A DNA stretch of 64,000 nt, from positions 4,924 to 68,923 of the forward strand of contig JACOUI010000261.1 of NCBI GenBank assembly GCA_016177915.1, written 5' to 3'. Of the stretch, positions 7,303 to 63,051 are shown one piece after another. Positions within the stretch are counted from its first letter, which is position 1. Each line of letters begins with the position of its first letter. A program made the translations under genes and the position numbers. The stretch is from Planctomycetia bacterium (GTDB taxonomy: Bacteria > Planctomycetota > Planctomycetia > Pirellulales > S012-138). The notes under the pieces were generated by a model. That model worked only from the letters and a program-made list of their open reading frames with translations, searched no databases and was not told the origin of the DNA.

Positions 7303-7346
7303 TTTGGGACCAGAAGGTCGGGAGTTCGAATCTCCCCGCCCCGACT
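7303..7346 (+). repeat. att site: 44-bp copy of tRNA-Pro(UGG) 3' part (left junction of element)
   Basis: TTTGGGACCAGAAGGTCGGGAGTTCGAATCTCCCCGCCCCGACT, identical to 56789-56832. Contains anticodon loop TT-TGG-GA, T arm GGGAG/TTCGAAT/CTCCC and 3' acceptor CGCCCCG + A. No D arm or 5' acceptor strand upstream. Confidence 0.85.
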
Positions 7347-27277: not shown

Positions 27278-27283
27278 GCAACG

Positions 27284-33058: not shown

Positions 33059-33483
33059 CCCACGACGACTTCATTGCCCAAATCGACCGCTTCCTCGACG
33101 GCGATCTCGATGTGATCGAGTGGCACGAGTTCCGCGACCACATGAAAACGTGTCGTGAGTGCTCGCAACGGTTAGTGCAGCGGCGCATCGACCTGCTTGA
33201 CGAAGGCGGCCTTTTGGCGGCGCTCCTAGAGCCGCAACCCCAGCGATGCATCACGGCCGGAACGCTCACACGATGGCTCAAGGGCGAAATCCCCATGGAG
33301 CTTTCGCCGCGCGTCTCCAACCACCTGCGTAACTGTCGGTACTGCCACGACCATGCCGCCGAACTGGCAACCCGACTTTACCGACATGAAAATGACGTTC
33401 ACGCGGCCGAACCCCCGTATCGCATCCGTACTGCTGCTTTAGACGGCCCGATGGGCGAAGATGACGGTGACCAAGACGTCTGA
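33055..33483 (+). CDS. tandem zf-HC2 (ZAS, anti-sigma-type) protein, copy B
   Basis: ATGA overlap with the upstream stop. Same two HxxxCxxC motifs (DHMKTCRECS, NHLRNCRYCH). Longer acidic C-terminal tail. Confidence 0.75.
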   Translation: MTHDDFIAQIDRFLDGDLDVIEWHEFRDHMKTCRECSQRLVQRRIDLLDEGGLLAALLEPQPQRCITAGTLTRWLKGEIPMELSPRVSNHLRNCRYCHDHAAELATRLYRHENDVHAAEPPYRIRTAALDGPMGEDDGDQDV

Positions 33484-43933: not shown

Positions 43934-44278
43934 ATGTCGCCACGCGCCACGCGCTTGCTCGTCTTCGCCGTGATCTTCACCGTGTTTGCCGGGCTTGCGG
44001 GCTTCGTATCGGCCCTGCTCTGCTTCATTCCCGCGCCCTATCTCTTCCCTCTGGCGTACCACCTCTCCCATCGGGTCGCCTGGGACCTCACCGCGAACTT
44101 CGTTTCGCGACTGCAGTGCCCGCGCTGCGCCTTTCAACTCCCCGCCGTCGGCGTTTGGACGGTGGGTTCCTACACGGACCATCACGAGCAGAACATCTAC
44201 AACGTCCGCAGCCCCATCGACGGCAAGCACATCGGATGGATCGATTGCCCGCAGTGCGGCTCAACGATCGTCCTTTAA
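43934..44278 (+). CDS. hypothetical membrane protein with zinc-ribbon (CPRC...CPQC)
   Basis: ATG 43934 after AAGGGAG. TM helices LLVFAVIFTVFAGLAGFVSALLCFI, then CPRC...CPQC. Confidence 0.5.
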   Translation: MSPRATRLLVFAVIFTVFAGLAGFVSALLCFIPAPYLFPLAYHLSHRVAWDLTANFVSRLQCPRCAFQLPAVGVWTVGSYTDHHEQNIYNVRSPIDGKHIGWIDCPQCGSTIVL

Positions 44279-44294
44279 GCGAGCGCACAGCAAC

Positions 44295-46877
44295 ATGGTC
44301 AAGCGGCCGAATAGCCTGTGGGAGCAGTACCAAGGCAAAGCCCAAGCGGTGATCCGGTGCGGCTGCGGCTTATGGCCCGTCCAGCCGCACCCTTGCGCTC
44401 TCGAACCGCCCTGCTGGCCCTTTGACCGCACTTCCGTCAACGTGTGGGACTGTCTTGTCAACGACTGGGAAGGCCCCTGGGATGGACGCACAGCAGTTCA
44501 GAGCCTCTTTGTCCCAGAGCCGCCTGTTGTCCACCAGCGCGGCCAGCCCGTCGTGCTGCCTCCCCTCCCCTACCAAGTGGAGACGGACCTTGTAGCGATC
44601 ACCATCGAACAGTTCTTTGCCGAAGACCATTCAAGCATTCCGCTGGCGGAACAGTTTCTGCTGTCCTTGATGAACCTTGATCGGCCCGTTGCCTTTGAGT
44701 TGTTCGGCGTCGGCCGCACAGACTACTCCGAACCGTTCGTGCAGACCCGGTTTGTCGCCCATCGACGACATGCCGATCAGATCCAGCGCCAGTTGCTGCA
44801 GCATTACCCCAACTCTGCGATTGCGCTCGACGATTCCGCCGATACCCTCGACTTCCGCCAATTCCTGCAGTTGCTGGCCGACGACGAGGGATTCGGAGGA
44901 CCGTTGCTCCTTCACGCCGGCTGCTGTTTTCCGCTTCGCACGTACACGCGCCTGGAGCCGGATCCCCTCGGCGTCGCCATCGCCGCGATGGACCACCTGG
45001 ACGAAGGCAAATGGGCCTTCCTCCAAATCCTCTTTGAACCAGCTCGGGAACCGTGGGCTCAAACGATCGATCAGGCCCTGGCTCACCCCTACAACCCGAA
45101 CGAGTACCTTCTTGAGTCCAGTGAGCTGCGGCTGCTGCGCCAAAAGCTGGAATCGCCCCTATTTGCCGTCTCTCCGCGACTCATGGCCAGCACGAAGGCG
45201 GACTTGCGGGCGCTCGCGAGCTGGGCCGAACAGTTCACGTCTCCGCCGCAAGGCATGGCGATCCCCGAGGATTGGCCGGAAGGCGAGATGCCCGACGACG
45301 ACGAAGCATTTGCCTTCTGCTACGACCTGTGCGGTCGCTGCACGCACCGCCCGGGAATGCTGCTCAACTTGCAGGAACTAGCCAGCCTTGTGCACCTGCC
45401 ATCCGAGTCCGTCGCCACCGAACGGCTCCGCCGAGTTAAGGCGCGCACAAGACCGGCCGTGCCAGTGCCCGAGGAGGACGAGTCTATCGTCTTGGGCGAA
45501 AACGTACACCGCGGCCGGACGCGCCGCGCCAAGATTTCCCCGCAGCTCCGACCCCGCCACTGCTACATCGCCGGCGCATCAGGGACGGGCAAATCCACGC
45601 TGCTCCTGAACATGATTCTCCAGGACATCGAGGCCGGCCGGGGCGTCGGCCTGCTCGACCCGCACGGCGACCTTGTCAACGACGTGCTGCGGCGCATTCC
45701 CGACCACCGCGTCGATGACGTGATCCTCTTCGATCCGGCCGACGACGAGTACCCGTTGGCGCTGAACATCCTGGAGGCCAAGGACGCGAGCGAACGCGAG
45801 CGGATCGTCCAGGAGACCGTCATGGCCCTGGAACGGTACTTTCCAGCGTCGTGGGGACCGCGGCTGGAGCGCATCCTGATGTTCGCAATCCACTCCGTAC
45901 TCCAGGCCCTGCCGGGCGCCACGTTGGCCGACGTCGAGCGAATTCTCACGGACGACGAGTTCCGCACCGACGTTGTCTCGCGCACCACCGACCCGCGCTT
46001 CCTGGACTTCTGGGAAAAGCAGTTTCGCTTCTTCCCCAAGAACGCCGTTGATCCCGTGCTTAACAAGCTGTCGCCGTTCTTGCTCTCCCCTACCGTGCGG
46101 AACATCATTTGCCAGCGCCGGTCGGCCATCGACTTCGACCGGCTGCTGAACGGCGGCAAGATTTTCCTGGCGAACCTGTCGACCGGCTTGTTGACGGAGA
46201 AGATCGCTGGCACGTTCGGCAGCTTCTTGGTGACCAAGATCGTCAACGCCGCCTTCCGCCGAGCGCGGTTGCCCGAGGAGGAGCGACGTCCCTGGCATCT
46301 TTACGTCGACGAGTTTCAGGCTTTCATGAACCTGTCGGTTGGCTTCGACCGCATTTTGGCCGAAGCCCGTAAGTACAGGCTTCTGTTGACCGTCGCCAAC
46401 CAGTACGTCGGGCAGCTTTCGCCGGCCGTCCGACAAGCCGTCTTTGGAAACGTCGCCGTCTTCGTGATCTTCCGCCTGGGCGTTGACGACGCCGGGATCG
46501 TGGCGAAGGAGTTGGGCCCGTTCACGGCCGACGAGATTCTCAACCTTGAGCTGGGCGAGGCTATCGTCCGCGCTGGGGCGTCTTCCCAATCCTTCAACGC
46601 GACGACGTTTCCCCCGCCAGCGCTCCCGCCCGCCAATCCCGCACCGCAGATCCGCGACCAATCCCGAAAGCGGTACTCCCGGCCGAGGGGCGAGGTAGAG
46701 GATGACCTCATCGCCCCACAGCCGGATGCTGACTCCAGCATTGAAAGAGCTAAGAACACCGGCAAATCAACACGTCCGCCGCGTACGTCGTCGAAGCACC
46801 GCCGGCATCGCCGGGCGGCCCAGAATCCGGATCTGACTGAGCCGATTGATCCGCGCGAAGACGAGTTGGAACCCTAA
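44295..46877 (+). CDS. TraD/VirD4/FtsK-HerA-like coupling (DNA-translocating) ATPase
   Basis: Walker A IAGASGTGKSTLLLNMI, LLDPHGDL, Walker B WHLYVDEFQAF, ARKYRLLLTVANQ. ATG 44295 chosen because the ORF-track start 43986 overlaps the upstream gene. Confidence 0.8.
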   Translation: MVKRPNSLWEQYQGKAQAVIRCGCGLWPVQPHPCALEPPCWPFDRTSVNVWDCLVNDWEGPWDGRTAVQSLFVPEPPVVHQRGQPVVLPPLPYQVETDLVAITIEQFFAEDHSSIPLAEQFLLSLMNLDRPVAFELFGVGRTDYSEPFVQTRFVAHRRHADQIQRQLLQHYPNSAIALDDSADTLDFRQFLQLLADDEGFGGPLLLHAGCCFPLRTYTRLEPDPLGVAIAAMDHLDEGKWAFLQILFEPAREPWAQTIDQALAHPYNPNEYLLESSELRLLRQKLESPLFAVSPRLMASTKADLRALASWAEQFTSPPQGMAIPEDWPEGEMPDDDEAFAFCYDLCGRCTHRPGMLLNLQELASLVHLPSESVATERLRRVKARTRPAVPVPEEDESIVLGENVHRGRTRRAKISPQLRPRHCYIAGASGTGKSTLLLNMILQDIEAGRGVGLLDPHGDLVNDVLRRIPDHRVDDVILFDPADDEYPLALNILEAKDASERERIVQETVMALERYFPASWGPRLERILMFAIHSVLQALPGATLADVERILTDDEFRTDVVSRTTDPRFLDFWEKQFRFFPKNAVDPVLNKLSPFLLSPTVRNIICQRRSAIDFDRLLNGGKIFLANLSTGLLTEKIAGTFGSFLVTKIVNAAFRRARLPEEERRPWHLYVDEFQAFMNLSVGFDRILAEARKYRLLLTVANQYVGQLSPAVRQAVFGNVAVFVIFRLGVDDAGIVAKELGPFTADEILNLELGEAIVRAGASSQSFNATTFPPPALPPANPAPQIRDQSRKRYSRPRGEVEDDLIAPQPDADSSIERAKNTGKSTRPPRTSSKHRRHRRAAQNPDLTEPIDPREDELEP

Positions 46878-47157
46878 CTAATCCACCAGCCAATCGACAA
46901 TCTCCCTCAGAGTCCCGTCAGTGACACGGATTCCGCTCTTCAGCTCGCCACTACCGTGCCACCCCGGCAGCGTCCCTCCACCTCGCCCAGACTGAGTACA
47001 GGAAAGGTTGCGACGACACCCCATGCGGGGGCGAGTGCATCCCATTCTCGAGCTCTGCCGAGTTCCGCAGCACTTTCATCCGCCGCCTAGACTGCATGAC
47101 GTAAGTTCCTCGTGCTTAGCTTCTTAGGACCGTCTACTATTCTTGGCGCTACGCTCT

Positions 47158-47172
47158 TGGCACGCCAGTTGC
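47158..47172 (+). promoter_or_regulatory. sigma-54 (-24/-12) promoter
   Basis: TGGCACG-CCAG-TTGC, i.e. GG and GC elements with exact consensus spacing, in the intergenic region upstream of the 47477 gene. Confidence 0.6.
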
Positions 47173-47476
47173 CATTGCCGCGCCCACGGGTCTTGGGTGA
47201 CAGGCGATTCGGAATGAAATGGGGGCCTGTGCCCGCGCGACGCCAATCAGCAGTAGGCCAGCGCGCCCGGGTTCGGGTAGCGCCCGCTCTGCGGCACCAG
47301 CCTGGACCATGCCGGGTAGCCGCGCGGCGCCCGAATTCGGCGGGGAGATTTGGTCCATGCCGGGGAAGAAGAAACGCCACAACGATATCCGGATCGAGCA
47401 CGGTTTCGCGGGCCTCGACGGGGTTAGCCGAACTCGCCAGCCCTCAATGAACAACCGACGCAACAGGAGATCAACT

Positions 47477-47935
47477 ATGAGCGCTTTCGATCAAGTCGAT
47501 CATCCCGACCACGGGCCAGAACCCGGCGGTCGCCCAAAAGAATCGCCCCTGACGAGGCTCATGTGGATCGTCGTTAGCGGCCTGACCATCGTCATGCTTG
47601 CGACGATTGTCAAGCTGGGCATCGGCCAACTCGGTCGTGAGCAGAATGCCGCCATGAACCCGATTGCGGGGCTGTGGACTGACGAAAAGGGCGGCGCCAT
47701 GTTCGTTGCTTCGGTTCCTGAGGGTCCGATCTGGCTCGTGAACTCGACGCTCGGGTATCGGCTTGATGTCAAGCATCGCACTGAGACAATCTACGAAGGT
47801 CGCCTCATTTGCGCCCGCCATCAAGCGGACATCGGCGTGTTTGTAATTGAGCGAGCCACCGACAACACACTCACCGCCATGCTCCTCCCCAACGGCAGAC
47901 CGCGCGTCACCTTGGTGTTGCGGAGGGCCGATTAG
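47477..47935 (+). CDS. small membrane-anchored hypothetical protein
   Basis: ATG 47477 after AGGAGA (alternative ATG 47357 after GGGGAGA). One TM helix (LMWIVVSGLTIVMLATIVKLGI) then a ~95-aa beta-rich-looking domain. Confidence 0.55.
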   Translation: MSAFDQVDHPDHGPEPGGRPKESPLTRLMWIVVSGLTIVMLATIVKLGIGQLGREQNAAMNPIAGLWTDEKGGAMFVASVPEGPIWLVNSTLGYRLDVKHRTETIYEGRLICARHQADIGVFVIERATDNTLTAMLLPNGRPRVTLVLRRAD

Positions 47936-48093
47936 TTAGCAAGGGTTCACCTCGCGTGACGGGCGGCGACAAGGCAGACCCTCGCTTCGCTCCTACCCCC
48001 CCCCAAGCACCCTGCGCCAGAGCGAAGTGGTTACACCCCGTCGCTCCCCGAGCGAATGGGATGAGTCCAGACGTACCACCTCGGCCGCGGCGG

Positions 48094-49521
48094 TCAGGTG
48101 TTTCCAGTGCGCGGGGTGTCTGGGAATCGTTTCCGGTCAGTCCTCAGCAAACGTCCCGCGAGCGACGCGTTGCCACCGGCCTTCTCAAGGAATGCGCTCT
48201 TCACGATCTCTCTGACTTTCTCCCCGCACGCATTCGTGAAATCGTTCCACGCCGGGTACTTATTCCACGGTAGCTCATCACTGTTGAGGACTTCTTGGAT
48301 CATGCCGACAAGTTCGTTAAGTCGTCCGTCTACGAGCGTCGTCGTCGCGCTCGCGGACATGTCGTTCACCTCGTGCCCGAGATGATACTCGTAAACCGTA
48401 TCCCCGTGGGGAATCGCACGCCTGATCAAGCCATCCAGTTCGTGCAGGTTACCGGCCAATGTCCGGTCGCGCAAGAACTTCATTGCCTCGTCAGAGACGG
48501 AGGCTGTGCTCTCGTATTTCTTCAAGAGCGAGGCAACCAGTAGTTCGAGATCATGCCTCTTGCGTTCCTCGACGCTCGGCAAATGCACGACCGTACATTT
48601 CTCGAGCCTGTTGAAAAGGTCGCGCCTCAGCCTGCCCACTTCCAATTCGACCGTTAGGTTCCGATGTGTCGCGGCAATGATGCACCCCTCGAACCTTTTC
48701 CTCTCGGTCGAACCCACCCTGTTGAAACTGCCTTCGTTCAACAAGTCCAGCAGGCAGATTTGTTCGTCGAGACCCAATTCGCCGATCTCGTCGAGGAACA
48801 GTGTTCCTCCGTGAGCCTTCTCGATCCACCCCTCACGGTCGATTGCCCCCGTGAATGCTCCTTTGCACGTCCCGCAGAGATCGGAGAGAATGAACTCCCT
48901 TCGTACCTTTCCAATCTGGAAGTGGCAGAATCCACCTTTCCCCGCCGCAATCCGGAGCCTGTGGATGACCTCGGCGAGATAGCCCTTTCCTGTGCCGGAT
49001 GCTCCGAGCAAAAGGAAGTCCGGGCTGCCCCTCATCAGGGCACGGGCGACCCGGATGAGCCTCGCCACCATGCCAGGATGCCGCGTGTGCATTGCCGCCT
49101 TCAGCCGCGTGATATTCGCGCGGAGATCGCTATTCACGGCGTCGCGAATGGCCTGGACGTAACTGCCCGCTTCCGGCGGCCAGCGGATGCAAGCGACGAC
49201 TGGGTATTGGATGACCTTGGCGTAGACATGGGGTAGCGCGTCGTCGAGAATCGCGACGGGCAAGGGCATCGAATCGTCTCCCCCGAGGTCGGAAACTAGC
49301 TGGGGACCAGAGGGCTCCCCCCCTAAACCCCAGTCGACGACTAGGGCGTCGAACTGCCCAGATTTGGGACCGCGAATCAGCTCACGGGCAGCCGCGCCGC
49401 TTGAGCAAAACTGCAGCCTGGCAGCGAGACCACCCGCCGCGATGAGCTCCCTGTGCTTCTGGCGGTAGTCCTCATTGTCGGCCTTACCGGACACGATCAG
49501 AAGGTTGTACTGGTGGGACAT
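48094..49521 (-). CDS. sigma-54-dependent enhancer-binding protein (REC-like N-term, AAA+, Fis HTH)
   Basis: LLLGASGTGKGYLA, GAFTGA loop (CKGAFTGAIDREG), GGTLFLDEIGEL, RRDLFNRL. C-terminal HTH GGNASLAGRLLRTDRKRF. Confidence 0.9.
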   Translation of the reverse strand: MSHQYNLLIVSGKADNEDYRQKHRELIAAGGLAARLQFCSSGAAARELIRGPKSGQFDALVVDWGLGGEPSGPQLVSDLGGDDSMPLPVAILDDALPHVYAKVIQYPVVACIRWPPEAGSYVQAIRDAVNSDLRANITRLKAAMHTRHPGMVARLIRVARALMRGSPDFLLLGASGTGKGYLAEVIHRLRIAAGKGGFCHFQIGKVRREFILSDLCGTCKGAFTGAIDREGWIEKAHGGTLFLDEIGELGLDEQICLLDLLNEGSFNRVGSTERKRFEGCIIAATHRNLTVELEVGRLRRDLFNRLEKCTVVHLPSVEERKRHDLELLVASLLKKYESTASVSDEAMKFLRDRTLAGNLHELDGLIRRAIPHGDTVYEYHLGHEVNDMSASATTTLVDGRLNELVGMIQEVLNSDELPWNKYPAWNDFTNACGEKVREIVKSAFLEKAGGNASLAGRLLRTDRKRFPDTPRTGNT

Positions 49522-50749
49522 CGCTGCTCACCGGAATGTAGAAGATAGTCTTGCAACCCCTTGCGGTGTTCTCCCTCCGAATTCCGCCGCCCATGTCATG
49601 CGCGAGACGTTTGGCCAGTTCCAAGGCGCGGTCCTCCGGTCTGTCGCCCAGACCGGCACCAACTCTTCCTCGCTCCTCGCACTCGACACTCACCGCGACT
49701 GTACCGTTGTCCCGTCTCAACGTTTGAATCCAGAGCCTAGTGCCGCGCCGCGCCCTGTCAATGCCCGAGAAGACGACTGCGTCGATGACCGCGAAAAGAT
49801 CTTCGGGGAACGTGCAGACCTCGTACTCGCCGTCCGATGAGACCTCGAGCAGCAACCGTTTGTAGGCGATTCCTGGCCCCAGGCGGCCGATTACCTTCTC
49901 GACTACGCTCCCAATCAAGATAACGTTTCGCTGCGGACCATACCACAACTTCCGGCGGTAAGCCTCGTTGCAGCACTCAAGCGTGGAGAACGCAGCACGG
50001 CGGACAGCTTCCACTCCCTCAGCAAGCGCGTGCTCCTGCTTCCCTTCACCTGGGAACTGGCCCAGTCCGAGTTGCTGTTCCAGTCTTTGGGCGCAGTCCA
50101 AAACCTTCTCGATCCCATCGGAGGCGGCCCGTCCCATCTTGCTCGCCACCTCCGCCTGACTCTCCGCGCACATCCATGACTTCATCTGCTGCAGCAAGTA
50201 CTGGCGCTTGAACCTTCGCCATGCCTGCCGCGACTTTTGCTGACCGAGACGATAGGCACGGCAAACGGCCGCAAACATCTCGTCGGTACGTGAGGGCTTC
50301 GGGACGAAGTCCGCCGCGCCACCACGAAATGTTCGGATGATGGTCTGGGGATTGCCATGCTGCGTGTAGATGACCACGGCCCCGCAGGCCACATCGCTCA
50401 GATCGCTCGCCGCCCTGAGGACGTCGAGCCCCACCTGAGGATCCTCTTTGTCCTGCGGATCGGAGGGATTCGAGCGACTGAGACCCAGGTCGAGGGTCAC
50501 GACATCATATGGCCGCTTCTTCTCTGCGGCTTCACGAAGGAAAGCGACGGCCTCGGCGCCGGTGACGGCCGGCTGCACTTCGAAGCTGCTGATACCGTAC
50601 TTCTCGACGTAGGAGTGTGGCGGTTCCTCGAACGCGTAACACAGGTCCCGCCTTTCGGAGTCCAGGTCCTCCACCAGCAACAGACGCGGTTTGGCACTCA
50701 CGACGGCCCTCCCTTTCGATTTCCCGACACGGCTCGTCCACCAACCCAT
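49484..50749 (-). CDS. response-regulator receiver fused to HATPase-like domain
   Basis: REC: PRLLLVEDLDSER...YDVVTLDLGLS...VVIYTQHG...GAADFVPKP. The C-terminal region ...LWIQTLRRDNGTVAVSVECEERG...LAHDMGGGIRREN...IFYIPV resembles an HK ATP-binding domain. Confidence 0.75.
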   Translation of the reverse strand: MGWWTSRVGKSKGRAVVSAKPRLLLVEDLDSERRDLCYAFEEPPHSYVEKYGISSFEVQPAVTGAEAVAFLREAAEKKRPYDVVTLDLGLSRSNPSDPQDKEDPQVGLDVLRAASDLSDVACGAVVIYTQHGNPQTIIRTFRGGAADFVPKPSRTDEMFAAVCRAYRLGQQKSRQAWRRFKRQYLLQQMKSWMCAESQAEVASKMGRAASDGIEKVLDCAQRLEQQLGLGQFPGEGKQEHALAEGVEAVRRAAFSTLECCNEAYRRKLWYGPQRNVILIGSVVEKVIGRLGPGIAYKRLLLEVSSDGEYEVCTFPEDLFAVIDAVVFSGIDRARRGTRLWIQTLRRDNGTVAVSVECEERGRVGAGLGDRPEDRALELAKRLAHDMGGGIRRENTARGCKTIFYIPVSSDVPPVQPSDRVR

Positions 50750-50764: not shown

Positions 50765-53700
50765 TCACGACAAGCAAGTGGGACGAGCGGGTCTCAGGGG
50801 CGAGAGTACCTCGACCTCCCTGATCGGTAGGGTTATGCGCACGCGGGTTCCTTCGCTTGGGCACGAGTCAATTTCAAGCTGTCCCCCGTGGCTCTCGCAG
50901 TAGAGCCGAGACAGGAACAACCCCATCCCAGTCCGCACGACGGTGTCGAGCGGCTGCTCGCCCCGGAGGATCCGCTCCACATCTGCCGCACTGATCCCCG
51001 ACCCGGTGTCGGCGACCAGAATCTCACACCGGTTGAGCTGAGCCCGGTAGCGGATGACGAGCTCGAGACGCCCCCCCTGGGGCATCGAACGGATTGCATT
51101 ATCCACGACGTTCTCGAAGCACTCGAGTATCTGCCCTCCATGCACCCACGCTTTCGCCCGGTCGAGCGTACGAACCACGTCGATCCGCTGGCGCTCGAGG
51201 TCACTTGCATGGGAGGCTACCACCTCGTTGAGGAGCGCGTCCAAAGCACACTCGCCCCGCCGCACGGTCGCGAGGTGCTGTCCACTATCGCGCGCCTTAC
51301 GGAAGAGGTCGATGAGTCGGCCGACGTCGTCAATTGCCCTCTTGAGTTCCTCACTCTCGTCCGTCTCTCGGGACTTTCGCAGACAGATATTGAGCCACGC
51401 CTTAATGGAGGTGACGAGCTTCGCCTGCTCGTGGGCCGTCTTCGCGAGGTGGGCGGCTACACCGTTCAGAGCACGGTTCGCCTGCTGCACGGCGCGCTGC
51501 GTCTGCCCCCGACGACGGTCGATGACGCTCGCGAGCGCGTTCGCGAGTTCCAAGAGCTTTTCTTCGTCGTGGAGGGGTAGTGGGTCGCGGTCGCCACAAG
51601 GCTGTCTGCCCCTCCAGTGCTGGTCGATCGCCGCGACTACCTGGCCGCCGACCACGACAGGCAGGCAGACACGTTCAACGATGTAATCGGCCCTCACAGC
51701 CGTCGGATGCCAGCGATCGGTCGGCGGCCGGCGCTTCTCGACTATCCGCTTCGAGCGGAAGGCGTGCCAGAGGAGATCGTCGGGGGAATCGACCGTCAGA
51801 GGCCTGTCTGCGTCGTGGCAACCGGGGCGCTTCGAATACGCGACGCGACGTAGCAGGGGGAGTTCAGAGTCAGGCATGTAGATTGCGCAGTGGCGGAGTT
51901 GGTACTCCTCAATGACCTTCCGCGTAAATGCATCCAGCAAAACGTCTTCCGGCTCGTTTTCCACCTCAAGGAGCGCGCGCATCACTGCATCCCGCCTTCT
52001 TAGATCGCCAATTTCCCACAAGTCGCGGTCCGAGTTTCGCAGCCCGTAGACGTAGGCGGACAAATCCGCGGCGACCTTACGCAGGTGTTCGCGGTCAGCC
52101 GTCGCAAACCCCGGTTCGTGACCCTCGATCGGCAGCTTTCGCAGACGGTGGTTTGTGACGATCGCGAGCGGGCACGGGCCTTGTGCAAACCAGAGTGGCA
52201 GCGTGATGACCTCGCACGTATAATCGTCACCGAGTGTGAAGCCGAACATCTCCGCTCCGTACTTGAGGAGCGTCGTCTGCCCGCGGTCCCGTTTGAACAC
52301 GCGAAGGTCATCGATGTAGTGCGGCTCACGGTCCATCGCGAGTGTTCCCGTCATCCCCTCGCCGAGTTCGTAGAAAGCCGCGTTGAGCCAGCGCTTATCG
52401 GCCCACCCTGCCTCGGCTCGGAGGACAAAACGTTTCTGCATGTCGTCCCAGAGGAAGAAAGAGGTGACACGAGCTGAGGCTGCCTGCCGAGCCCTTTCAG
52501 CGTGGTGCCTCAAAGCCGCGTACAGGTGAAAACCCCCGCCGATAGCTGGCTTGATGTCGCGCAGAAAACGCTCGGCCTTTTTCTGGTGGACATGGGCGAT
52601 GAGGTCCGAGAGCCGCGTGCCGATGTCGTTCAGGAGAGCCAAACGGTGCTGTGTGAACGACCACCCACCCGCGAAGTCTATCGCCACTACGCCTACAGGC
52701 GAGCCTCCCGGCCGGACGATCGGAAGAATCGCAAGGGAGCCGATTTCGCGAAGGGCCGTCGTGAACTCGGAGGAAGCGAGTCGATCGGACAGCACCTGCA
52801 CCGGACTCGTGCGGTCGCGTGGCCACAGCTCGTTGATGAGCACCCTTCGGTTGTTTCGGAAGCTCAAGGCCGACGGGGCGTCCGAGTCGTGCACATCGAT
52901 CTCACGCAGGTGACGCTGCCCTGCATCGTAAAACGATCCCCACCCCCCATCGATCAGCCGCAGCTTGTTCGTCTCCGGGTCGAGCAGCCGGATGTGACAC
53001 CCGGCCCCCATTGCCTTCGCCACCGCCACCACCACGTGCGAGGCCGCCTCCTCGAACGTGCAGCACTTCTCCCGTGCCTCCACGCAGGCCAAATCGAGAG
53101 TCCGCAGCGGAGTGAGCTCTTCAGTTTGGACAGCGCGGTTTATCATCGCAGATGCCCACGCGCCGAGCGCATTAAGTGCCGACTGCTGCTCCGCACTGAG
53201 GACTGGCAGCCCACGCAGATCCCCAAGATCAATCTGAAGGATTCCGAGGGTGCGCTGCTCGTCAGTGCCGCTCCCATCTCGACTCCTATGCCGATGCTCG
53301 AGCAGGGGAAGGACGTAGAAGCTGATGACGTTCCCGGCTCGCGCCGCCTCGTGATCGCAGTGCGGATTGGTCGTTGCGTCCATCACGTATTGCGCTTCCT
53401 GGCTCCGCGCGACCTCAGCGAGGATGTCTTCGCCGCCGAACTCCCGACGGGTAAGCGGCAGGACCTTTTGCCACCGGCCCCCAAGCGCCTCCTGGGCGAC
53501 AATCCACTGCTTCGAATCGTCGTCCTGCAGAACCATTGAGACCATCGCTCCTTGGTACCCGGCAGTGGCCACGCACTTCAGAACTTCTCCGATCGCTGCA
53601 TCAAGTGAGGGGGCTGTGGCCGCCTCGCCTGTGTGTTTCCTGATGGCCTCCGACGCCAGACGGAGTTTGAAGCTCGGGCACATGTCATCGGCGAGCGTGA

Positions 53701-55090
53701 GTTCGGTCAAACTCCAGTTGCCGAACACCGGTCGGCCGAAATGGTCGATGCCAATCTCCCCATCCATGTAACAACCGACTCGGACAGTACCCGAGAACTG
53801 CTGCTCGACGAGATCGAGCGCCTCCGGGATGTCGAAGCCGAGTCGGTGCCGCTCCCGGTAACGGGCGACGCAGCCAATAAGAAGAGCTCCCACACGAGTG
53901 CTCGGCTGACTGAGGCTGCGGCCGATCCAATCATGCACCCTTGTAACCGACTGCTGGGTCTTCCCCGGGTGGGGCCGAACAATATGAAGAGTCGCTCCAG
54001 CCGGGATTCGGCGCGGCACGCTGATGACAGAACCTGTCTGCTTCGGCTGCGCAACCACCCGGTCGCCGTAAGGGGTCTCCATGCAGAAGAGGTCCGTCGG
54101 CCCGAGTTCCTTCATGAGCTCCTCCGGTGACTTCTCCCCCCACAGCGCCGAGATCACATGTTCGTGGTCGCTCACCTCCTTCACATGGATGCTCCGCAGC
54201 GCTGGGCCGAGACCGTGGTTCAACCCCATGCCGTAGGTGACATCGGTGTCCACGAGCGCGACAACAGCGGCCCGGGCGAAGACCTGCCCCTCAGCGAACT
54301 GCGCCCCCATCCCCGGCTGAAGGCCTCCGCTCGCCACCCCGCCGAACGTGTGGATCCGGCCGTGCAGTTGGTTCCGTAACTCGGTGAAGATCTCCGGAGC
54401 CCTGTACCAGCGAGGGTCCCCATCCGCCCCGTAGCCCGGCAGGAACGTCAGGACAAACCGGTTACCCCGTGGCTGGCTTGGGAATCCGCCACAGAGGCCA
54501 AGGTGTTCAAGCATGCCAGTGACGGCCCCCACAGGGTCGTCTTGAGCACCGAGCCCCACGGCAACCCGGACTGCCATGAACCTGGATGCGAACCCCAAGA
54601 GCATCGCCCCGCGCTCGTGACAGCCATGATCGAAGCAGCAGACAGCGACTGAAGCACCGATAACAGGCACCTCGCCCAAGCCCATTTCTCGCAGGTTCGC
54701 GTGAACGGCTTGCAAGAGATCCTCGTATGGTTGAAAGCTTGGCGTGACGAGAAGCAAGTAAAGACGGGCCGGGAAAGGCTCCTCGTCCCGAGCACTGCCG
54801 ACAATCTGCTGGACAAGGGCAGCGCCATCCCTGCTGAGCGATCCGGACGGGCTCTCCAACGTTCCCAAAGTGACCCGTAAGTACGTGCTGCGTGGCCCGC
54901 CACTATCGCTAGACCCTGACCCGCCTGCTCTCATCTCGTCATGAACCTTGCGCGGCACGATTGTGATCTCCTCGTAAGCGTTCGGCAACTGATCGACAAG
55001 ATCGGGGCCCGGTTTCAAGGTGCCGTAGACGACGCCGTTCTTGGCGATCCTCCGACCGTCGAAGTCCTCCGCCTTTCCCGCGGCCACCAT
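50765..55090 (-). CDS. large cytoplasmic sensor histidine kinase (FIST-like N-terminus, multiple GAF-like modules, HisKA/HATPase_c)
   Basis: No TM segments noticed. C-terminal GGRLELVIRY...ILVADTGSGISAADVERI...GMGLFLSRLYCESHGGQLEIDSCPSEGTRVRITLP is a canonical HATPase_c. Upstream domain calls are by pattern only. Confidence 0.8.
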   Translation of the reverse strand: MVAAGKAEDFDGRRIAKNGVVYGTLKPGPDLVDQLPNAYEEITIVPRKVHDEMRAGGSGSSDSGGPRSTYLRVTLGTLESPSGSLSRDGAALVQQIVGSARDEEPFPARLYLLLVTPSFQPYEDLLQAVHANLREMGLGEVPVIGASVAVCCFDHGCHERGAMLLGFASRFMAVRVAVGLGAQDDPVGAVTGMLEHLGLCGGFPSQPRGNRFVLTFLPGYGADGDPRWYRAPEIFTELRNQLHGRIHTFGGVASGGLQPGMGAQFAEGQVFARAAVVALVDTDVTYGMGLNHGLGPALRSIHVKEVSDHEHVISALWGEKSPEELMKELGPTDLFCMETPYGDRVVAQPKQTGSVISVPRRIPAGATLHIVRPHPGKTQQSVTRVHDWIGRSLSQPSTRVGALLIGCVARYRERHRLGFDIPEALDLVEQQFSGTVRVGCYMDGEIGIDHFGRPVFGNWSLTELTLADDMCPSFKLRLASEAIRKHTGEAATAPSLDAAIGEVLKCVATAGYQGAMVSMVLQDDDSKQWIVAQEALGGRWQKVLPLTRREFGGEDILAEVARSQEAQYVMDATTNPHCDHEAARAGNVISFYVLPLLEHRHRSRDGSGTDEQRTLGILQIDLGDLRGLPVLSAEQQSALNALGAWASAMINRAVQTEELTPLRTLDLACVEAREKCCTFEEAASHVVVAVAKAMGAGCHIRLLDPETNKLRLIDGGWGSFYDAGQRHLREIDVHDSDAPSALSFRNNRRVLINELWPRDRTSPVQVLSDRLASSEFTTALREIGSLAILPIVRPGGSPVGVVAIDFAGGWSFTQHRLALLNDIGTRLSDLIAHVHQKKAERFLRDIKPAIGGGFHLYAALRHHAERARQAASARVTSFFLWDDMQKRFVLRAEAGWADKRWLNAAFYELGEGMTGTLAMDREPHYIDDLRVFKRDRGQTTLLKYGAEMFGFTLGDDYTCEVITLPLWFAQGPCPLAIVTNHRLRKLPIEGHEPGFATADREHLRKVAADLSAYVYGLRNSDRDLWEIGDLRRRDAVMRALLEVENEPEDVLLDAFTRKVIEEYQLRHCAIYMPDSELPLLRRVAYSKRPGCHDADRPLTVDSPDDLLWHAFRSKRIVEKRRPPTDRWHPTAVRADYIVERVCLPVVVGGQVVAAIDQHWRGRQPCGDRDPLPLHDEEKLLELANALASVIDRRRGQTQRAVQQANRALNGVAAHLAKTAHEQAKLVTSIKAWLNICLRKSRETDESEELKRAIDDVGRLIDLFRKARDSGQHLATVRRGECALDALLNEVVASHASDLERQRIDVVRTLDRAKAWVHGGQILECFENVVDNAIRSMPQGGRLELVIRYRAQLNRCEILVADTGSGISAADVERILRGEQPLDTVVRTGMGLFLSRLYCESHGGQLEIDSCPSEGTRVRITLPIREVEVLSPLRPARPTCLS

Positions 55091-55311
55091 GGTTCGAGCC
55101 GCTCAATTACCCGCCCCAGCTTGTAAAGCAACTCCCGCACCGATCTAGCCACAATCGACTGGTTTTACGGACGCCTGGGTACAAGCTTCGTCTTACCAAC
55201 TGCTTATGGCCTTCTTCCATTCATTGTGAGACGACGCTCGCCAGCCGTACTCAGTTGTCTCTCCTGGGGCGTTTATACCCCAGCGAGGGGAAACGCCACC
55301 CCAACGGACTT

Positions 55312-55466
55312 AGAGGCTGTCCGAGAAGATTCCCCGTGTTTTCTCGGAGTTTTTGACGGTAGCGTCGCAGCGATAGCGTGCGGTTTCTGCGTATCCAGCC
55401 GAAATCTCACGGACGCTGTCATTGAGAATCGCCGGAAAACACGGGGAATCTTCTCGGACAGCCTCT
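55312..55466. repeat. 32-bp perfect inverted repeat with 91-nt spacer
   Basis: AGAGGCTGTCCGAGAAGATTCCCCGTGTTTTC (55312-55343) is the exact reverse complement of 55435-55466. Confidence 0.95.
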
Positions 55467-55524
55467 TAGACGGGAGCATGAACGTTCCTTATTGTTTCGA
55501 CCTATTACCTATTGTTGGCGGCTC

Positions 55525-56616
55525 CTAACCCGTAGCTGCTGCCCGTGCCCCGGGCACGAGTGTGCCCTTACCCAACGCCTCCAGCGTGCAAATCAGTTCA
55601 CTGCTCCTCCAACTCCGAAGCCTCGCGCGAAGGTCAGACCAACGAATCCAAATCCCAGCGCCTCCCGACGACCCGCAAGAACTCGCCGTCGCCAACTCGC
55701 CTACTGTTGCGCACCAAACATGCTCATGCAACTCGTCGAACCACGGACGCGCTGCCCGCACGATTTCTGCCAGCCGTCCCGTATCGTCACCGTCCACGCG
55801 GCTCTTGACGATCCAGACGATCCGTAGCTCCCCAGCGCGCTCCTTGAAGCGACGTCCCCGTGCTACCGACTTGACCCACCGTGCTGCACGCCCATGTGTC
55901 ATCCAGACCGCGTACCGCCGCAATTTCCACGCAACTTGCTTCCGGCTCATCGTTCCCAGATCGAGTTCCACCAAAAACGCAATGAACCCGTGCCCATTTT
56001 CAACAGTGAACATCGCATCCGGACGCAGCCGTGCCGATTTGCCCAGTTCAGGTAACGCAAAAGCTGACTGCCTACCCAGCGAACGCCGCTCCACCTGCAG
56101 CAGCTTCACGTCCGTCCTAACCGCAAACTCTTTCCAGATTCCCAGCAAGAATTCCGTCAGCAGCAACTCGTGGATCACGTGCTCCGCGGAGTATCCTGCC
56201 TTACTGTGCCAGCCCTTCCGGTCCACGCGCGTCGGCTCCCACGTCTTCCCCTGCAACTTAAACGCTTCCTTGATCCTTTGCACGCCGCTCCTGGTCACGT
56301 AGTACACCTTGGGAAACAATGGCCCCACCGCGCGCGCCGGCGCCACGCCCAGCCAGCCGAGTGACTCCAACTCTTGGAGCTGCCGTCGGGCCGTCCGTCC
56401 GGACTTCAGGTACTTGGCGAACCGCCGCTGAATCTGGCTGGCCACGGCAAAGCGATTTCGGTACACCCATGCCAAGATTGCTGCGAAGTGCGGTCGCTCC
56501 TTCGGATTCTCCAGTCGGCGGCAACGGTACCGATGAACCGGCGTTACCAGCGACGGCAACTCCCAGGGCGTCAGCGGCCGCCGGCGTTTTCTCCTTGTCC
56601 ACGCTGAAACGTTCAT
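55525..56616 (-). CDS. replication-relaxation family protein, paralogue 2
   Basis: TPWELPSLVTP, AAILAWVYRNRFAVASQIQRRF...LESLGWLG, HELLLTEFLLGIW, LVELDLGTMS. ATG 56616. Confidence 0.65.
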   Translation of the reverse strand: MNVSAWTRRKRRRPLTPWELPSLVTPVHRYRCRRLENPKERPHFAAILAWVYRNRFAVASQIQRRFAKYLKSGRTARRQLQELESLGWLGVAPARAVGPLFPKVYYVTRSGVQRIKEAFKLQGKTWEPTRVDRKGWHSKAGYSAEHVIHELLLTEFLLGIWKEFAVRTDVKLLQVERRSLGRQSAFALPELGKSARLRPDAMFTVENGHGFIAFLVELDLGTMSRKQVAWKLRRYAVWMTHGRAARWVKSVARGRRFKERAGELRIVWIVKSRVDGDDTGRLAEIVRAARPWFDELHEHVWCATVGELATASSCGSSGGAGIWIRWSDLRARLRSWRSSELICTLEALGKGTLVPGARAAATG

Positions 56617-56788
56617 CGTGCCGCGTCCCCCGCTTTCGCCCGGAGGCCACGGCCACAATCAACTTGCAGAGTTTTGCAGAGAAACCCTTGAAAAAAATGT
56701 GAATCGCTTGAAAATGTGAAATGGTTGAAGTGTTCTAACGGCTGAAAGGTCCAGGATTTCTGCGGTTTGGCAAGGTTCTTGGGCGTAG

Positions 56789-56832
56789 TTTGGGACCAGA
56801 AGGTCGGGAGTTCGAATCTCCCCGCCCCGACT
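56789..56832 (+). repeat. att site: second 44-bp copy of tRNA-Pro(UGG) 3' part (right junction)
   Basis: Identical to 7303-7346. Upstream sequence is not tRNA-like. The downstream flank carries a hairpin + T run. Confidence 0.85.
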
Positions 56833-60368: not shown

Positions 60369-61928
60369 ATGCGCCACGTGTCGCCTTTCGCGCGGCTGCT
60401 GTTGGTTCTCCTCCTTCTTGCCGGCGGGCTGATGTTTGACGAATCGATCCTGGCCGACGACGCGGTGATCGGTCCCGGCTACGACCGGCCGGGGCGGAAC
60501 GCGCACCAGAGCCGGTCGGTCGTGATCGCCAAGCACGGGATGGTGGCCACGGACCATCCGCTGGCCACGCTGGCGGGACTGGACGTTCTGCGGCAGGGAG
60601 GGAACGCCGCCGACGCGGCGATCGCGGCCAACGCGGTCAACGCGCTCGTCGAGCCGATGAGCTGCGGCATCGGCGGCGATTTGTTCGTCATCTATTACGA
60701 CGCCAAGACCAAGAAGCTCTACGGACTGAACGCCAGCGGCCGCAGCCCGTATACGCTCACGGGCGAGGTGTTCGCGAAGCGGGGTCTGAAGCAGATTCCG
60801 ACGGCGGGCGTGCTGGCGTGGTCGGTGCCGGGGTGCGTTTCGGGCTGGGAGGAGCTGCGCGGGCGGTTCGGGTCGATGAGTTTCGAGCAGCTCCTGGCAC
60901 CGGCGATTACGCACGCGGAAGAGGGTTTTCCGGTGACGGAGGTCGTCGCGGCCTACTGGCGGGCGGCGGAGCGGACGCTCGCGCGGCATCCGGACTCGGC
61001 GAAGACGTATCTCGTCGACGGCCGTGCGCCGCGGGCGGGCGATATTTTTCGCAATCCGTACCTGGCCCGGAGCTATCGCGCGATCGCCAAGGACGGGGCG
61101 GCGGGTTTTTACAAGGGGAGCATCGCCCGGCAGATCGCGGCCGCCAGCGCGTCGCTCGAAGGCTTCATGACGGAGAAGGACCTAGCCGACCACACGGCCG
61201 ATTGGGTCGAGCCGGTGAGCACGAATTATCGTGGTTACGACGTGTGGGAATTGCCGCCGAACGGGCAGGGGATCGCGGCCCTGCAGATGCTGAACATCTT
61301 GGAGGGTTATGACCTGAAGTCGATGGGGCACAACTCGGCCCAGCACCTGCACGTTTTCATCGAGGCCAAGAAGCTGGCGTTTGCCGACCGGGCAAGGTTC
61401 TATGCCGATCCGGCGGGCCAGAAGCTGCCGATCGCCGAGTTGATCTCGAAGCCCTATGCGGAGACGCGGCGGAAGCTGATCGACCCTGGCAAGGCGGCGG
61501 AGGACGTGCCGCACGGCGACCCGAAGCTGGCGCACGGCGACACGATCTACTTGTGCGTCGTCGACAAGGACCGCAACTGCTGCTCGCTGATCCAGAGCAA
61601 CTATTTCGGGTTTGGGTCGGGGATTGTGGCGGGCGACACGGGTTTTGCCATGCAGAACCGGGGCAACCTGTTTTCGCTCGACGACGACCATCCCAACCGC
61701 CTGGAGCCGCACAAGCGGCCGTTCCACACGATCATCCCGGCGATGGTCACGAAGGACGACCGGCCGGTGTTTCCGTTCGGCGTGATGGGGGGCGACTTTC
61801 AGCCGCAGGGGCACGTGCAGGTGCTGTGCAACATCATCGACTTCGGGATGAACGTGCTCGACTGGGAGCGGGGGACGCTCAACGGGGCAACGGAGCCGAG
61901 GAAGGACGGGTGTGCGTTGGGGTATTGA
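60369..61928 (+). CDS. ggt: gamma-glutamyltransferase family protein (possibly with internal C-terminal deletion)
   Basis: HGMVATDHPLATLAGLDVLRQGGNAADAAIA..., catalytic-Thr region HGDTIYLCVVD, FGFGSG, GGDFQPQGH, terminal EPRKDGCALGY. Confidence 0.85.
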   Translation: MRHVSPFARLLLVLLLLAGGLMFDESILADDAVIGPGYDRPGRNAHQSRSVVIAKHGMVATDHPLATLAGLDVLRQGGNAADAAIAANAVNALVEPMSCGIGGDLFVIYYDAKTKKLYGLNASGRSPYTLTGEVFAKRGLKQIPTAGVLAWSVPGCVSGWEELRGRFGSMSFEQLLAPAITHAEEGFPVTEVVAAYWRAAERTLARHPDSAKTYLVDGRAPRAGDIFRNPYLARSYRAIAKDGAAGFYKGSIARQIAAASASLEGFMTEKDLADHTADWVEPVSTNYRGYDVWELPPNGQGIAALQMLNILEGYDLKSMGHNSAQHLHVFIEAKKLAFADRARFYADPAGQKLPIAELISKPYAETRRKLIDPGKAAEDVPHGDPKLAHGDTIYLCVVDKDRNCCSLIQSNYFGFGSGIVAGDTGFAMQNRGNLFSLDDDHPNRLEPHKRPFHTIIPAMVTKDDRPVFPFGVMGGDFQPQGHVQVLCNIIDFGMNVLDWERGTLNGATEPRKDGCALGY

Positions 61929-62040
61929 GGGGGCGAGGGGTGAGGGTTGAGGAATGATGGTTACTCCAACTGCCGCCAGACAGAGAGGGGAGAGGGGGCG
62001 AGAGGGAGAGGGGGAGAGCGGAGACGAGGGAAGAGCTTCG

Positions 62041-62269: not shown

Positions 62270-62297
62270 TATGAGAGCCGTGCGAGAGAACCTACCC

Positions 62298-62902: not shown

Positions 62903-63051
62903 GGAATGATGGTTACTCCGTGTGCCGCCACATAGGGAGGGGGAGAGGGGGTGATGGAGCCGAGGAAGGACGGGTGTGCGTTGGGGTATTGAGGGGGGAG
63001 GAGGCTAGAGGCTGGAGACGACAGACATGAATGAAAAGGAGTTGACCTTCG

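What the first reader, a model, noticed from the sequence alone, without database searches (positions are those of the whole stretch)
47100..47935. Near-consensus sigma-54 promoter driving a small membrane-anchored protein on a mobile element
Seen: cTTGGCACGccagTTGCc at 47157-47173 matches TGGCACG-N4-TTGC exactly. It lies in an intergenic region on the same strand as the only downstream gene, a 152-aa protein with one TM helix (ATG 47477, or 47357). The leader is ~180-290 nt. The convergent neighbour is a sigma-54 enhancer-binding protein. Established: sigma-54 promoters are silent without their cognate bEBP, giving tight on/off control. Inference: the small membrane protein is the tightly gated output of the adjacent signalling operon. 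It may be a membrane-acting effector, such as a toxic/abortive or envelope-remodelling function.
Basis: partly seen in the sequence, partly recalled or inferred. Interest (0 to 1): 0.65.

Follow-up and report, generated by a model that had tools for sequence, protein, structure and literature searches.

The report
Sigma-54 promoter before orphan membrane gene
An exact sigma-54 promoter core lies in front of a small, one-of-a-kind membrane-protein gene, next to the only sigma-54 activator gene in the window, on an integrated mobile element of a planctomycete; this is an ordinary kind of regulatory arrangement with an unknown output.

Summary
TGGCACGccagTTGC sits at 47158-47172 (+), one base off the coordinates given. 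It is the only exact sigma-54 core in 64 kb, with 0.02 expected by chance. It lies in a 600-nt stretch that scores as non-coding, on the strand of ORF 47477-47935.

That ORF looks like a real gene. Its codon usage matches its neighbours, AGGAG lies 7 nt before the ATG, and it has one TM helix. It is also a strict orphan, with no relative among 5.8 billion or 1.84 billion proteins and no family match.

The convergent neighbour is an intact sigma-54 activator (bEBP) with Walker A/B and GAFTGA, and it is the only one in the window. It ends a three-gene operon that starts with a soluble FIST-GAF histidine kinase.

All of this fills the variable cargo slot of a ~49.5-kb integrated element. That element has 44-nt direct repeats, an integrase, ParA, two Replic_Relax genes and a TraG-like ATPase. 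Twenty-eight related loci carry other cargo, no bEBP and no exact sigma-54 core.

The most likely reading is a self-contained sensor, activator, sigma-54 promoter and membrane-protein module. Nothing supports a toxic or abortive role. Host rpoN, the transcription start and dependence on the activator could not be tested. I rate it a new member of a known kind, of modest interest.

The parts
47158..47172 (+). Sigma-54 (-24/-12) promoter core TGGCACGccagTTGC; GG at 47159-47160, GC at 47171-47172
   Evidence: Read directly. Unique exact match in the window (0.13 and 0.02 expected). None in 477 kb of related loci.
47184..47476 (+). Predicted leader, from an inferred start about 12 nt after the -12 GC to ATG 47477 (293 nt)
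   Evidence: Start position inferred from standard sigma-54 geometry. The leader folds no better than shuffles (z +1.94). 47219-47356 scores as non-coding, 47357-47476 is ambiguous (+0.08 bits/codon). No Rfam family.
47465..47469 (+). Shine-Dalgarno-like AGGAG, 7 nt before ATG 47477
   Evidence: Sequence.
47477..47935 (+). Orphan gene, 152 aa (NCBI HYS13_17735): short N-terminal tail, one TM helix (aa ~28-50), about 100-aa beta-rich C-terminal part
   Evidence: Codon score 0.217 bits/codon, best of six frames and like its neighbours at 0.21-0.23. GC by codon position 0.63/0.45/0.71, like real genes. Only itself found among 5.8e9 and 1.84e9 proteins. No Pfam, NCBIfam, PHROG, PADLOC or PDB match. 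AF2 pLDDT 57 and 52.
48094..49521 (-). Sigma-54 enhancer-binding protein (bEBP), 475 aa: FleQ-like degenerate receiver, AAA+ domain with GAFTGA, short C-terminal HTH-like tail
   Evidence: Sigma54_activat 1.7e-39. Walker A GASGTGKG, GAFTGA, Walker B LFLDEIGEL, R-finger and sensor II align with FleQ. Only GAFTGA in the window. No close homologue: self 1083 bits, next best 161.
49484..50749 (-). Receiver-domain protein with a long C-terminal extension (NCBI aa, HYS13_17745), the middle gene of the operon
   Evidence: Response_reg 4.6e-6, below the Pfam cut-off. One homologue, P0123, 42% identical, on a JGI contig with the same order HK fragment - this protein - bEBP.
50765..55090 (-). Soluble sensor histidine kinase, 1441 aa: FIST_N/FIST_C, GAF domains, HATPase_c
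   Evidence: Pfam. No TM-grade hydrophobic segment.
46947..46961 (-). Second sigma-54-like site, TGGCACGgtagTGGC (one mismatch), pointing away from the first and 196 nt from it; status uncertain
   Evidence: The only one-mismatch site in the window with GG and GC intact. About 0.025 expected in a 600-nt region at the rate seen in related loci. No ORF follows it; a transcript would be antisense to the 3' end of the TraG-like gene.
46984..47094 (+). Weak candidate activator sites: CGCCCAGACTG (46984-46994) and CGCCTAGACTG (47084-47094), 100 nt apart, about 95 and 195 nt before the predicted start
   Evidence: My estimate is about 0.3 such pairs by chance, so not significant. No perfect dyad of 6 nt or more in 46878-47157.
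43986..46877 (+). TraG/TrwB-like coupling ATPase of the element, the backbone gene just upstream (true start probably later than the ORF start)
   Evidence: TrwB_AAD_bind, TraG-D_C, DUF87. 58-62% identical relatives in Planctomycetota MAGs.
55525..56658 (-). Second Replic_Relax gene, closing the cargo slot
   Evidence: Pfam 5e-18. At the same relative place in L005, L010 and L012.
7303..7346 (+). Left 44-nt direct repeat (att), tRNA-Pro 3'-half-like, next to an integrase gene (ORF 7130-8563)
56789..56832 (+). Right 44-nt direct repeat (att), identical to the left copy

Best explanation
This is a self-contained regulatory cargo module on a planctomycete integrated element. A soluble FIST-GAF histidine kinase (50765-55090), a receiver-domain protein (49484-50749) and a sigma-54 enhancer-binding protein (48094-49521) form one operon on the minus strand. 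The bEBP, once activated, uses ATP to open the RNA polymerase-sigma-54 complex waiting at the -24/-12 promoter at 47158-47172. Transcription would start near 47184 and run through a ~290-nt leader into the convergent gene 47477-47935. That gene encodes an orphan 152-aa single-pass membrane protein. Expression of this protein would therefore be off unless the cytoplasmic sensor is triggered. Shown here: the exact motif, its rarity, its non-coding position, the coding quality of the ORF, the intact motifs of the bEBP, and the shared location in a variable cargo slot. Inferred: sigma-54 binding, the start site, activation by this particular bEBP, and any role for the protein.
For: Exact core, 0.02-0.13 expected per window. 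There are 0 exact cores in 477 kb of related loci. The site lies in DNA that scores as non-coding and is oriented toward the only downstream gene. The ORF has gene-like codon usage, an SD and a TM helix. The neighbour has every AAA+ and GAFTGA motif needed to act on sigma-54, and it is the only bEBP in 64 kb. Promoter, small gene and operon together occupy the 8.6-kb slot between the TraG-like gene and the second Replic_Relax gene. Related elements hold unrelated cargo in that region, no bEBP and no exact core. The planctomycete Rhodopirellula baltica has rpoN, RB6491, whose product was found to be translated (PMC2754498). Sigma-54 mRNAs with leaders of several hundred nt are documented in E. 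coli (PMC4591121).
Against: There is no comparative support. The ORF is an orphan and the intergenic region is not conserved anywhere. The one homologous operon ends 174 nt after its bEBP and its DNA could not be read. No convincing activator binding site lies upstream: no dyad, and only an 11-nt direct repeat that chance can give. Pfam did not detect the bEBP's HTH, and its receiver domain is degenerate and FleQ-like. rpoN in this host is unknown. Bases flanking the core deviate from the extended consensus. In E. coli most sigma-54 binding sites were transcriptionally inactive under the conditions tested (PMC4591121). No terminator was found between the TraG-like gene and the ORF, so read-through could also express it.
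Confidence: 0.55

Rival explanations
1. The motif binds sigma-54 holoenzyme, or nothing at all, without productive transcription. It would be a chance or decoy site. The small ORF is then expressed from another promoter or by read-through from the TraG-like gene on the same strand.
For: 13 of 100 shuffles give at least one TGGCAC-N5-TTGC. In E. coli most sigma-54 sites were inactive in the conditions used (PMC4591121). No activator site was identified. No + strand terminator between 46877 and 47477.
Against: Only 2 of 100 shuffles give the 11-base core. It lies within 1 kb of the only bEBP gene, in non-coding DNA and in the right orientation. There are 0 exact sites in 477 kb of related DNA that lacks a bEBP. 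No sigma-70-like promoter was found in 46500-48400.
Confidence: 0.17
2. The promoter is functional, but its main product is an RNA and not the 152-aa protein. The transcript would run into the convergent bEBP operon and act as antisense feedback, and the ORF would be spurious or incidental.
For: The ORF has no homologue at all. No terminator or stable structure lies in the 158-nt gap between the convergent genes. The leader is long.
Against: The ORF's codon score and codon-position GC match real genes, and it is the best of six frames. It has an SD at the right distance and a clean TM helix. The leader shows no excess structure and no Rfam match.
Confidence: 0.1
3. The promoter is functional but answers to a chromosomal bEBP of the host. 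The adjacent bEBP acts on a target elsewhere, outside the window.
For: The arrangement is convergent, not the more usual divergent or tandem one. No binding site could be assigned. The HTH of the adjacent bEBP is weak or atypical.
Against: bEBP genes usually lie next to their targets (general knowledge of the family). This is the only exact site and the only bEBP in 64 kb. Both sit in the same acquired cargo slot.
Confidence: 0.1

Closest known systems
ZraS-ZraR-ZraP of Enterobacteria (histidine kinase, bEBP, and a sigma-54-dependent gene for a small envelope protein next to them); cited from my own knowledge
   Same: A two-component system whose response regulator is a bEBP. Next to it lies a single small (~150 aa) envelope-protein gene with its own sigma-54 promoter as the local output.
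   Different: zraP is divergent, not convergent. ZraP is a periplasmic protein with a signal peptide and a recognised family, and ZraS is a membrane kinase. Here the kinase is soluble (FIST-GAF), there is an extra receiver protein, and the target has no family match at all.
PspF with pspABCDE and pspG (phage-shock response); cited from my own knowledge
   Same: A bEBP drives sigma-54 promoters whose products include very small inner-membrane proteins (PspB, PspC, PspG).
   Different: The small protein matches no Psp family in Pfam or NCBIfam. PspF has no sensor domain and is controlled by PspA. Here a kinase operon sits upstream of the bEBP. The TIGR02974 pspF score for the bEBP is 101 bits against a cut-off of 443.
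XylR/Pu on the TOL plasmid and DmpR/Po on pVI150 (bEBP and sigma-54 promoter pairs carried by mobile elements); cited from my own knowledge
   Same: A bEBP and its sigma-54-dependent target travel together as cargo on a mobile element and depend on the host's RpoN.
   Different: Those regulators sense aromatic compounds directly through a V4R domain and switch on catabolic operons. Here the input is a phosphorelay-like operon and the output is one orphan membrane protein.
FleQ (Pseudomonas), the closest solved structure to the bEBP
   Same: The alignment covers the AAA+ domain and also the non-canonical receiver-like N-terminal domain (residues 42-372, E 3.8e-34).
   Different: About 121 bits only, so this is no orthologue. 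There is no flagellar or exopolysaccharide context.
RtcR-type CARF-AAA+-HTH regulators (PADLOC models PDLC01993-01995)
   Same: The AAA+ domain scores best against these models (177.6 bits; NCBIfam RtcR 177.8 bits).
   Different: The match starts at model position ~160, so the CARF domain is absent. The NCBIfam cut-off is 650 bits. No rtcBA genes are nearby.

Membership tests
Sigma-54-dependent (-24/-12) promoter | GG and GC dinucleotides exactly 10 nt apart within TGGCAC-N5-TTGC | tested here: met
   Exact at 47158-47172.
Sigma-54-dependent (-24/-12) promoter | Extended consensus flanks (pyrimidine before TGG; A/T after TTGC), as I recall the consensus | tested here: inconclusive
   T precedes TGG, which fits. 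C follows TTGC, which does not fit. No position weight matrix was available to score it.
Sigma-54-dependent (-24/-12) promoter | Lies upstream of a gene, on its strand, in non-coding DNA | tested here: met
   The flanks 46878-47218 score as non-coding. It is 305 nt before ATG 47477.
Sigma-54-dependent (-24/-12) promoter | Host encodes RpoN | not testable with these tools
   No RpoN box in the window, and the rest of the MAG could not be reached. R. baltica, a planctomycete, has rpoN (PMC2754498).
Sigma-54-dependent (-24/-12) promoter | Upstream activator sequence for a bEBP | tested here: inconclusive
   No dyad of 6 nt or more. One 11-nt direct repeat, with about 0.3 expected by chance by my estimate.
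Sigma-54-dependent (-24/-12) promoter | Transcription start about 12 nt after the GC, dependent on bEBP and ATP | not testable with these tools
   Needs 5'-RACE, dRNA-seq or reporter assays.
Bacterial enhancer-binding protein (the neighbour at 48094-49521) | AAA+ sigma-54 interaction domain with Walker A, Walker B, GAFTGA loop and arginine finger | tested here: met
   PF00158 at 1.7e-39. The motifs are seen in the alignment to FleQ.
Bacterial enhancer-binding protein (the neighbour at 48094-49521) | C-terminal Fis-type HTH (HTH_8) | tested here: inconclusive
   Not reported by Pfam at E <= 0.01. Full-length NifA, NtrC and NorR models align to residue ~460, and the tail GGNASLAGRLLRTDRKRF resembles the motif.
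Bacterial enhancer-binding protein (the neighbour at 48094-49521) | Phosphorylatable receiver domain (NtrC class) | tested here: inconclusive
   No Response_reg match. The N-terminus aligns with FleQ's atypical receiver. Asp63 is in the acceptor position, but the acidic pair is missing (sequence).
Psp or ZraP small envelope proteins (for the 152-aa protein) | Match to a PspB, PspC, PspG or ZraP family model | tested here: not met
   No Pfam match even at E <= 10 apart from a spurious 13-bit hit. No NCBIfam match.
Known anti-phage defence or abortive-infection effector | Match of the small protein or of the operon to a defence-system model | tested here: not met
   PADLOC: nothing for the small protein, the receiver protein or the kinase. 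The bEBP matches only the AAA+ part of the RtcR models. No PHROG match.
Integrative mobilisable or conjugative element | Direct repeats at both ends, one of them tRNA-derived | tested here: met
   44-nt perfect repeats at 7303-7346 and 56789-56832, resembling a tRNA-Pro 3' half. No intact tRNA lies at either copy.
Integrative mobilisable or conjugative element | Integrase next to an end; relaxase-like and coupling-protein genes | tested here: met
   Phage_integrase 6.7e-17. Replic_Relax twice, plus a TrwB/TraG-like ATPase. ParA. The backbone is syntenic in Planctomycetota MAGs.
Integrative mobilisable or conjugative element | Mating-pore (type IV secretion) genes | not tested
   None were seen among the ORFs scanned. 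Several large ORFs have no family.

The most novel reading that the evidence does not exclude
The operon and its sigma-54-gated orphan membrane protein form a new mobile-element-borne 'sense and strike' system. A cytoplasmic FIST-GAF sensor would detect an intracellular cue, such as phage infection, a nucleotide signal or element transfer, and switch on a membrane-acting effector from a promoter that is silent until then. The same element carries several defence systems (PDC-S28, a Ppl-like ATPase, type I restriction-modification).
Probability: 0.08. Interest if true: 0.65.

Novelty: new member of a known kind. Interest (0 to 1): 0.3.

Why it matters
If confirmed, this would be a clean, minimal sigma-54 regulon with one sensor operon, one promoter and one gene, carried by a planctomycete mobile element. 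Gene regulation and mobile elements are little studied in that phylum. It would also give an experimental handle on an orphan membrane protein and on a FIST-GAF kinase whose signal is unknown. As it stands it is a plausible but ordinary regulator-and-target pair, and its output has no assignable function.

Tried and rejected
- **Homologues of the 152-aa protein.** The word-indexed search, the exhaustive HMMER search, IMG/VR, Pfam at E <= 10, NCBIfam, PHROGs, PADLOC and PDB sequences all returned only the protein itself or nothing.
- **Structure.** AF2 on the full protein and on the C-terminal part gave pLDDT 57 and 52. That is too poor for a fold search, so none was run.
- **Orthologues of the bEBP.** None are close.
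- **Orthologues of the middle protein.** A metagenome scan with the two-sequence alignment found only unrelated receiver domains.
- **Conservation of the intergenic region in 28 related loci.** None was found.
- **Structured leader or riboswitch.** No Rfam hit, and folding is worse than shuffles.
- **Longer ORF from ATG 47219.** Rejected, because 47219-47356 scores as non-coding with GC-rich second codon positions.
- **Terminator between the convergent genes.** None found.
- **Dyad activator site.** None found.
- **Source contig by exact protein look-up.** Not on record.
- **Literature link between sigma-54 activators and anti-phage defence.** No paper held all the search terms.

Full report
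**The motif**

The plus strand reads ...gctcTTGGCACGccagTTGCcatt... in the window. TGGCACG is at 47158-47164 and TTGC at 47169-47172. The quoted 18-mer therefore runs 47156-47173, one base off the stated start.

TGGCAC-N5-TTGC occurs once on both strands of the 64-kb window, against 0.13 expected from dinucleotide-preserving shuffles. The 11-base form TGGCACG-N4-TTGC has 0.02 expected, and 2 of 100 shuffles gave a hit. As an empirical background, 477 kb of related element DNA fetched later holds 0 exact sites and 20 one-mismatch sites.

**The surroundings of the motif**

I trained a codon-usage log-odds model on twelve window genes, most of them with Pfam support. It scores 46878-47218 negative in all six frames, so the motif lies in non-coding DNA.

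The ORF 47477-47935 scores +0.217 bits per codon in its own frame. That is the best of the six frames and close to the three signalling genes next to it (0.21-0.23). Its GC by codon position is 0.63/0.45/0.71, the pattern of the confident genes. AGGAG at 47465-47469 lies 7 nt before the ATG.

The upstream in-frame extension from ATG 47219 scores as non-coding. The part from ATG 47357 is ambiguous at +0.08. NCBI's annotation of the source, a MAG labelled Planctomycetia bacterium, calls the same 152-aa product, HYS13_17735.

With a start inferred about 12 nt after the -12 GC, near 47184, the leader is 293 nt. It shows no excess secondary structure (z +1.94) and matches no Rfam family. Sigma-54 mRNAs with leaders of several hundred nucleotides are documented in E. 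coli (PMC4591121), so this length is not an objection.

**The small protein**

It has one strongly hydrophobic segment at residues ~28-50, preceded by a short charged tail and followed by about 100 residues predicted as beta strands. The predictions have low confidence, with pLDDT 57 for the whole protein and 52 for the C-terminal part.

It is a strict orphan:
- only itself among 5.8 billion clustered proteins
- only itself among 1.84 billion representatives read exhaustively by HMMER
- nothing in IMG/VR
- nothing in Pfam even at E <= 10, NCBIfam, PHROGs, PADLOC or PDB sequences

No function can be assigned from sequence.

**The neighbouring operon**

*The bEBP.* Gene 48094-49521(-) is a bona fide sigma-54 enhancer-binding protein, with PF00158 at 1.7e-39. 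Walker A (GASGTGKG), the GAFTGA loop, Walker B (LFLDEIGEL), the arginine-finger region and sensor II all align with FleQ and NtrC1 structures.
- Its N-terminal ~140 residues align with FleQ's atypical receiver domain and are not recognised as Response_reg.
- Its C-terminal tail resembles a Fis-type HTH, but Pfam does not report it.
- It has no close relative: self 1083 bits, next best 161.
- It carries the only GAFTGA in the six-frame translation of the window, and no RpoN box is present.

*The other two genes.* Upstream in the same operon lie a receiver-domain protein (49484-50749) and a 1441-aa FIST-GAF-GAF-HATPase kinase (50765-55090). None of the three proteins has a TM-grade hydrophobic segment, so the sensor is cytoplasmic.

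*The one related operon.* The middle protein has a single homologue, P0123, 42% identical over 93% of its length. It sits on a 3.9-kb JGI contig with the same order: kinase fragment, this protein, bEBP. So the operon is a conserved unit. That contig ends 174 nt past the bEBP and its DNA could not be read, so its target is unknown.

**The mobile element**

- **Ends.** A perfect 44-nt direct repeat that resembles the 3' half of tRNA-Pro lies at 7303-7346 and 56789-56832.
- **Integrase.** A tyrosine integrase gene sits just inside the left copy.
- **Cargo between the repeats.** There is PDC-S28, a Ppl-like ATPase and a type I restriction-modification system.
- **Backbone.** It consists of ParA, a 492-aa protein, Replic_Relax, a small TM protein, a TraG/TrwB-like ATPase and a second, inverted Replic_Relax.

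A genome scan with the TraG-like protein found 28 loci. The closest ones, from Pirellulales, Schlesneria and other Planctomycetota MAGs, share this backbone in the same order.

The DNA after the TraG-like gene differs from locus to locus. It holds a PAS kinase plus response regulator in L010, a 1140-aa protein in L005, and elsewhere an RHS-repeat protein, a Ser/Thr kinase, an ABC transporter or a methyltransferase. In L005 and L010 a second Replic_Relax gene closes this stretch, as in the window. In some other loci the element may simply end after the TraG-like gene.

In the window the 8.6-kb slot holds exactly the sigma-54 promoter, the small gene and the three-gene operon. None of the 28 loci has a bEBP, an exact sigma-54 core or similarity to the intergenic region. 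The promoter therefore belongs to the cargo and not to the backbone. Promoter, target and activator appear to travel together.

**What could not be shown**

- No activator binding site could be assigned. There is no dyad of 6 nt or more in 46878-47157, and only an 11-nt direct repeat (CGCCyAGACTG, 100 nt apart) that chance would give about 0.3 times by my estimate.
- No terminator separates the TraG-like gene from the small ORF, or the small ORF from the convergent bEBP gene. Read-through and antisense effects remain possible.
- rpoN of the host is outside the window. The only support is that the planctomycete R. baltica has rpoN and its product was found to be translated (PMC2754498).
- In E. 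coli many sigma-54-bound sites are transcriptionally silent under laboratory conditions (PMC4591121). A perfect motif therefore predicts binding better than it predicts output.

**An extra observation**

The only one-mismatch site in the window with GG and GC intact, TGGCACGgtagTGGC at 46947-46961 on the minus strand, lies in the same intergenic region. It is 196 nt from the first site and points the other way. About 0.025 such sites are expected in 600 nt at the background rate. Nothing codable follows it, and a transcript would be antisense to the end of the TraG-like gene. It may be chance, a second promoter or part of the control region.

**Verdict**

The best explanation, at confidence 0.55, is a sensor, bEBP, sigma-54 promoter and orphan membrane protein module carried as cargo. 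The rivals are a silent or chance site (0.17), an RNA-only output (0.10) and control by another bEBP (0.10).

In kind it resembles ZraSR-ZraP, PspF-pspG and plasmid-borne XylR-Pu (my own knowledge of these systems). The small protein fails every family test that could be run, and the bEBP is not an orthologue of any named regulator. I rate it a new member of a known kind, interest 0.3.

Noticed in passing
window 7303-7346 and 56789-56832: Perfect 44-nt direct repeats that resemble the 3' half of tRNA-Pro(TGG) bound a ~49.5-kb element. ARAGORN finds no intact tRNA at either copy. Just left of the right copy, 'GGGCGTAG' looks like a remnant of the tRNA 5' end joined directly to the anticodon loop.
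   Followed up: partly
window 5783-7129: An int-alpA RNA motif (Rfam RF02996, 39.4 bits) lies directly before a 421-aa ORF with no Pfam family, just left of the left repeat. This suggests a second mobile element integrated in tandem.
   Followed up: no
window 10683-29272: Defence cargo on the element: PDC-S28 (E 3e-240), a Ppl-like SMC/AAA_21 ATPase (17648-20578), a type I R-M system hsdR/hsdM/hsdS (22141-27277) and a 662-aa HATPase_c_3 protein (27284-29272).
   Followed up: partly
window 46947-46961 (-): A second sigma-54-like site, TGGCACGgtagTGGC, points away from the first in the same intergenic region, 196 nt from it. A transcript from it would be antisense to the 3' end of the TraG-like gene.
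   Followed up: partly
window 55309-55469: A large inverted repeat (58-nt arms, 79% complementary, 45-nt spacer) lies between the second Replic_Relax gene and the start of the kinase operon. The Logan contig L001 breaks inside it.
   Followed up: no
window 31617-31916 and 33054-33353: Two 300-nt direct repeats, 95% identical, flank a 332-aa ORF with an RRM_1 domain (32060-33058). Each copy holds TGGCACGAGTTCCGC, a two-mismatch sigma-54-like string.
   Followed up: no
window 20766-20862 (-): ARAGORN calls a 97-nt tRNA-Val(GAC). That is unusually long, and it overlaps the 3' end of a Toprim-domain ORF (20782-21903). It is possibly a false call or an intron-bearing gene.
   Followed up: no
window 61884-63213: Several repeat pairs (families D3, D4, D6) with start-to-start spacings of 952-1064 nt indicate a roughly 1-kb tandem duplication in the chromosomal flank to the right of the element.
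   Followed up: no
L006 8787 and L010 8788 (+): The same one-mismatch sigma-54-like string, TGGCACGCACTGTGC, lies between the Replic_Relax gene and the small TM-protein gene in two related Planctomycetota elements. There is no counterpart in the window.
   Followed up: no
L010 12266-16807 (-): A related Schlesneria element carries a PAS-rich histidine kinase, a response regulator and a 186-aa ORF after its TraG-like gene, on the opposite strand as here. Signalling operons may therefore recur as cargo at this position.
   Followed up: partly
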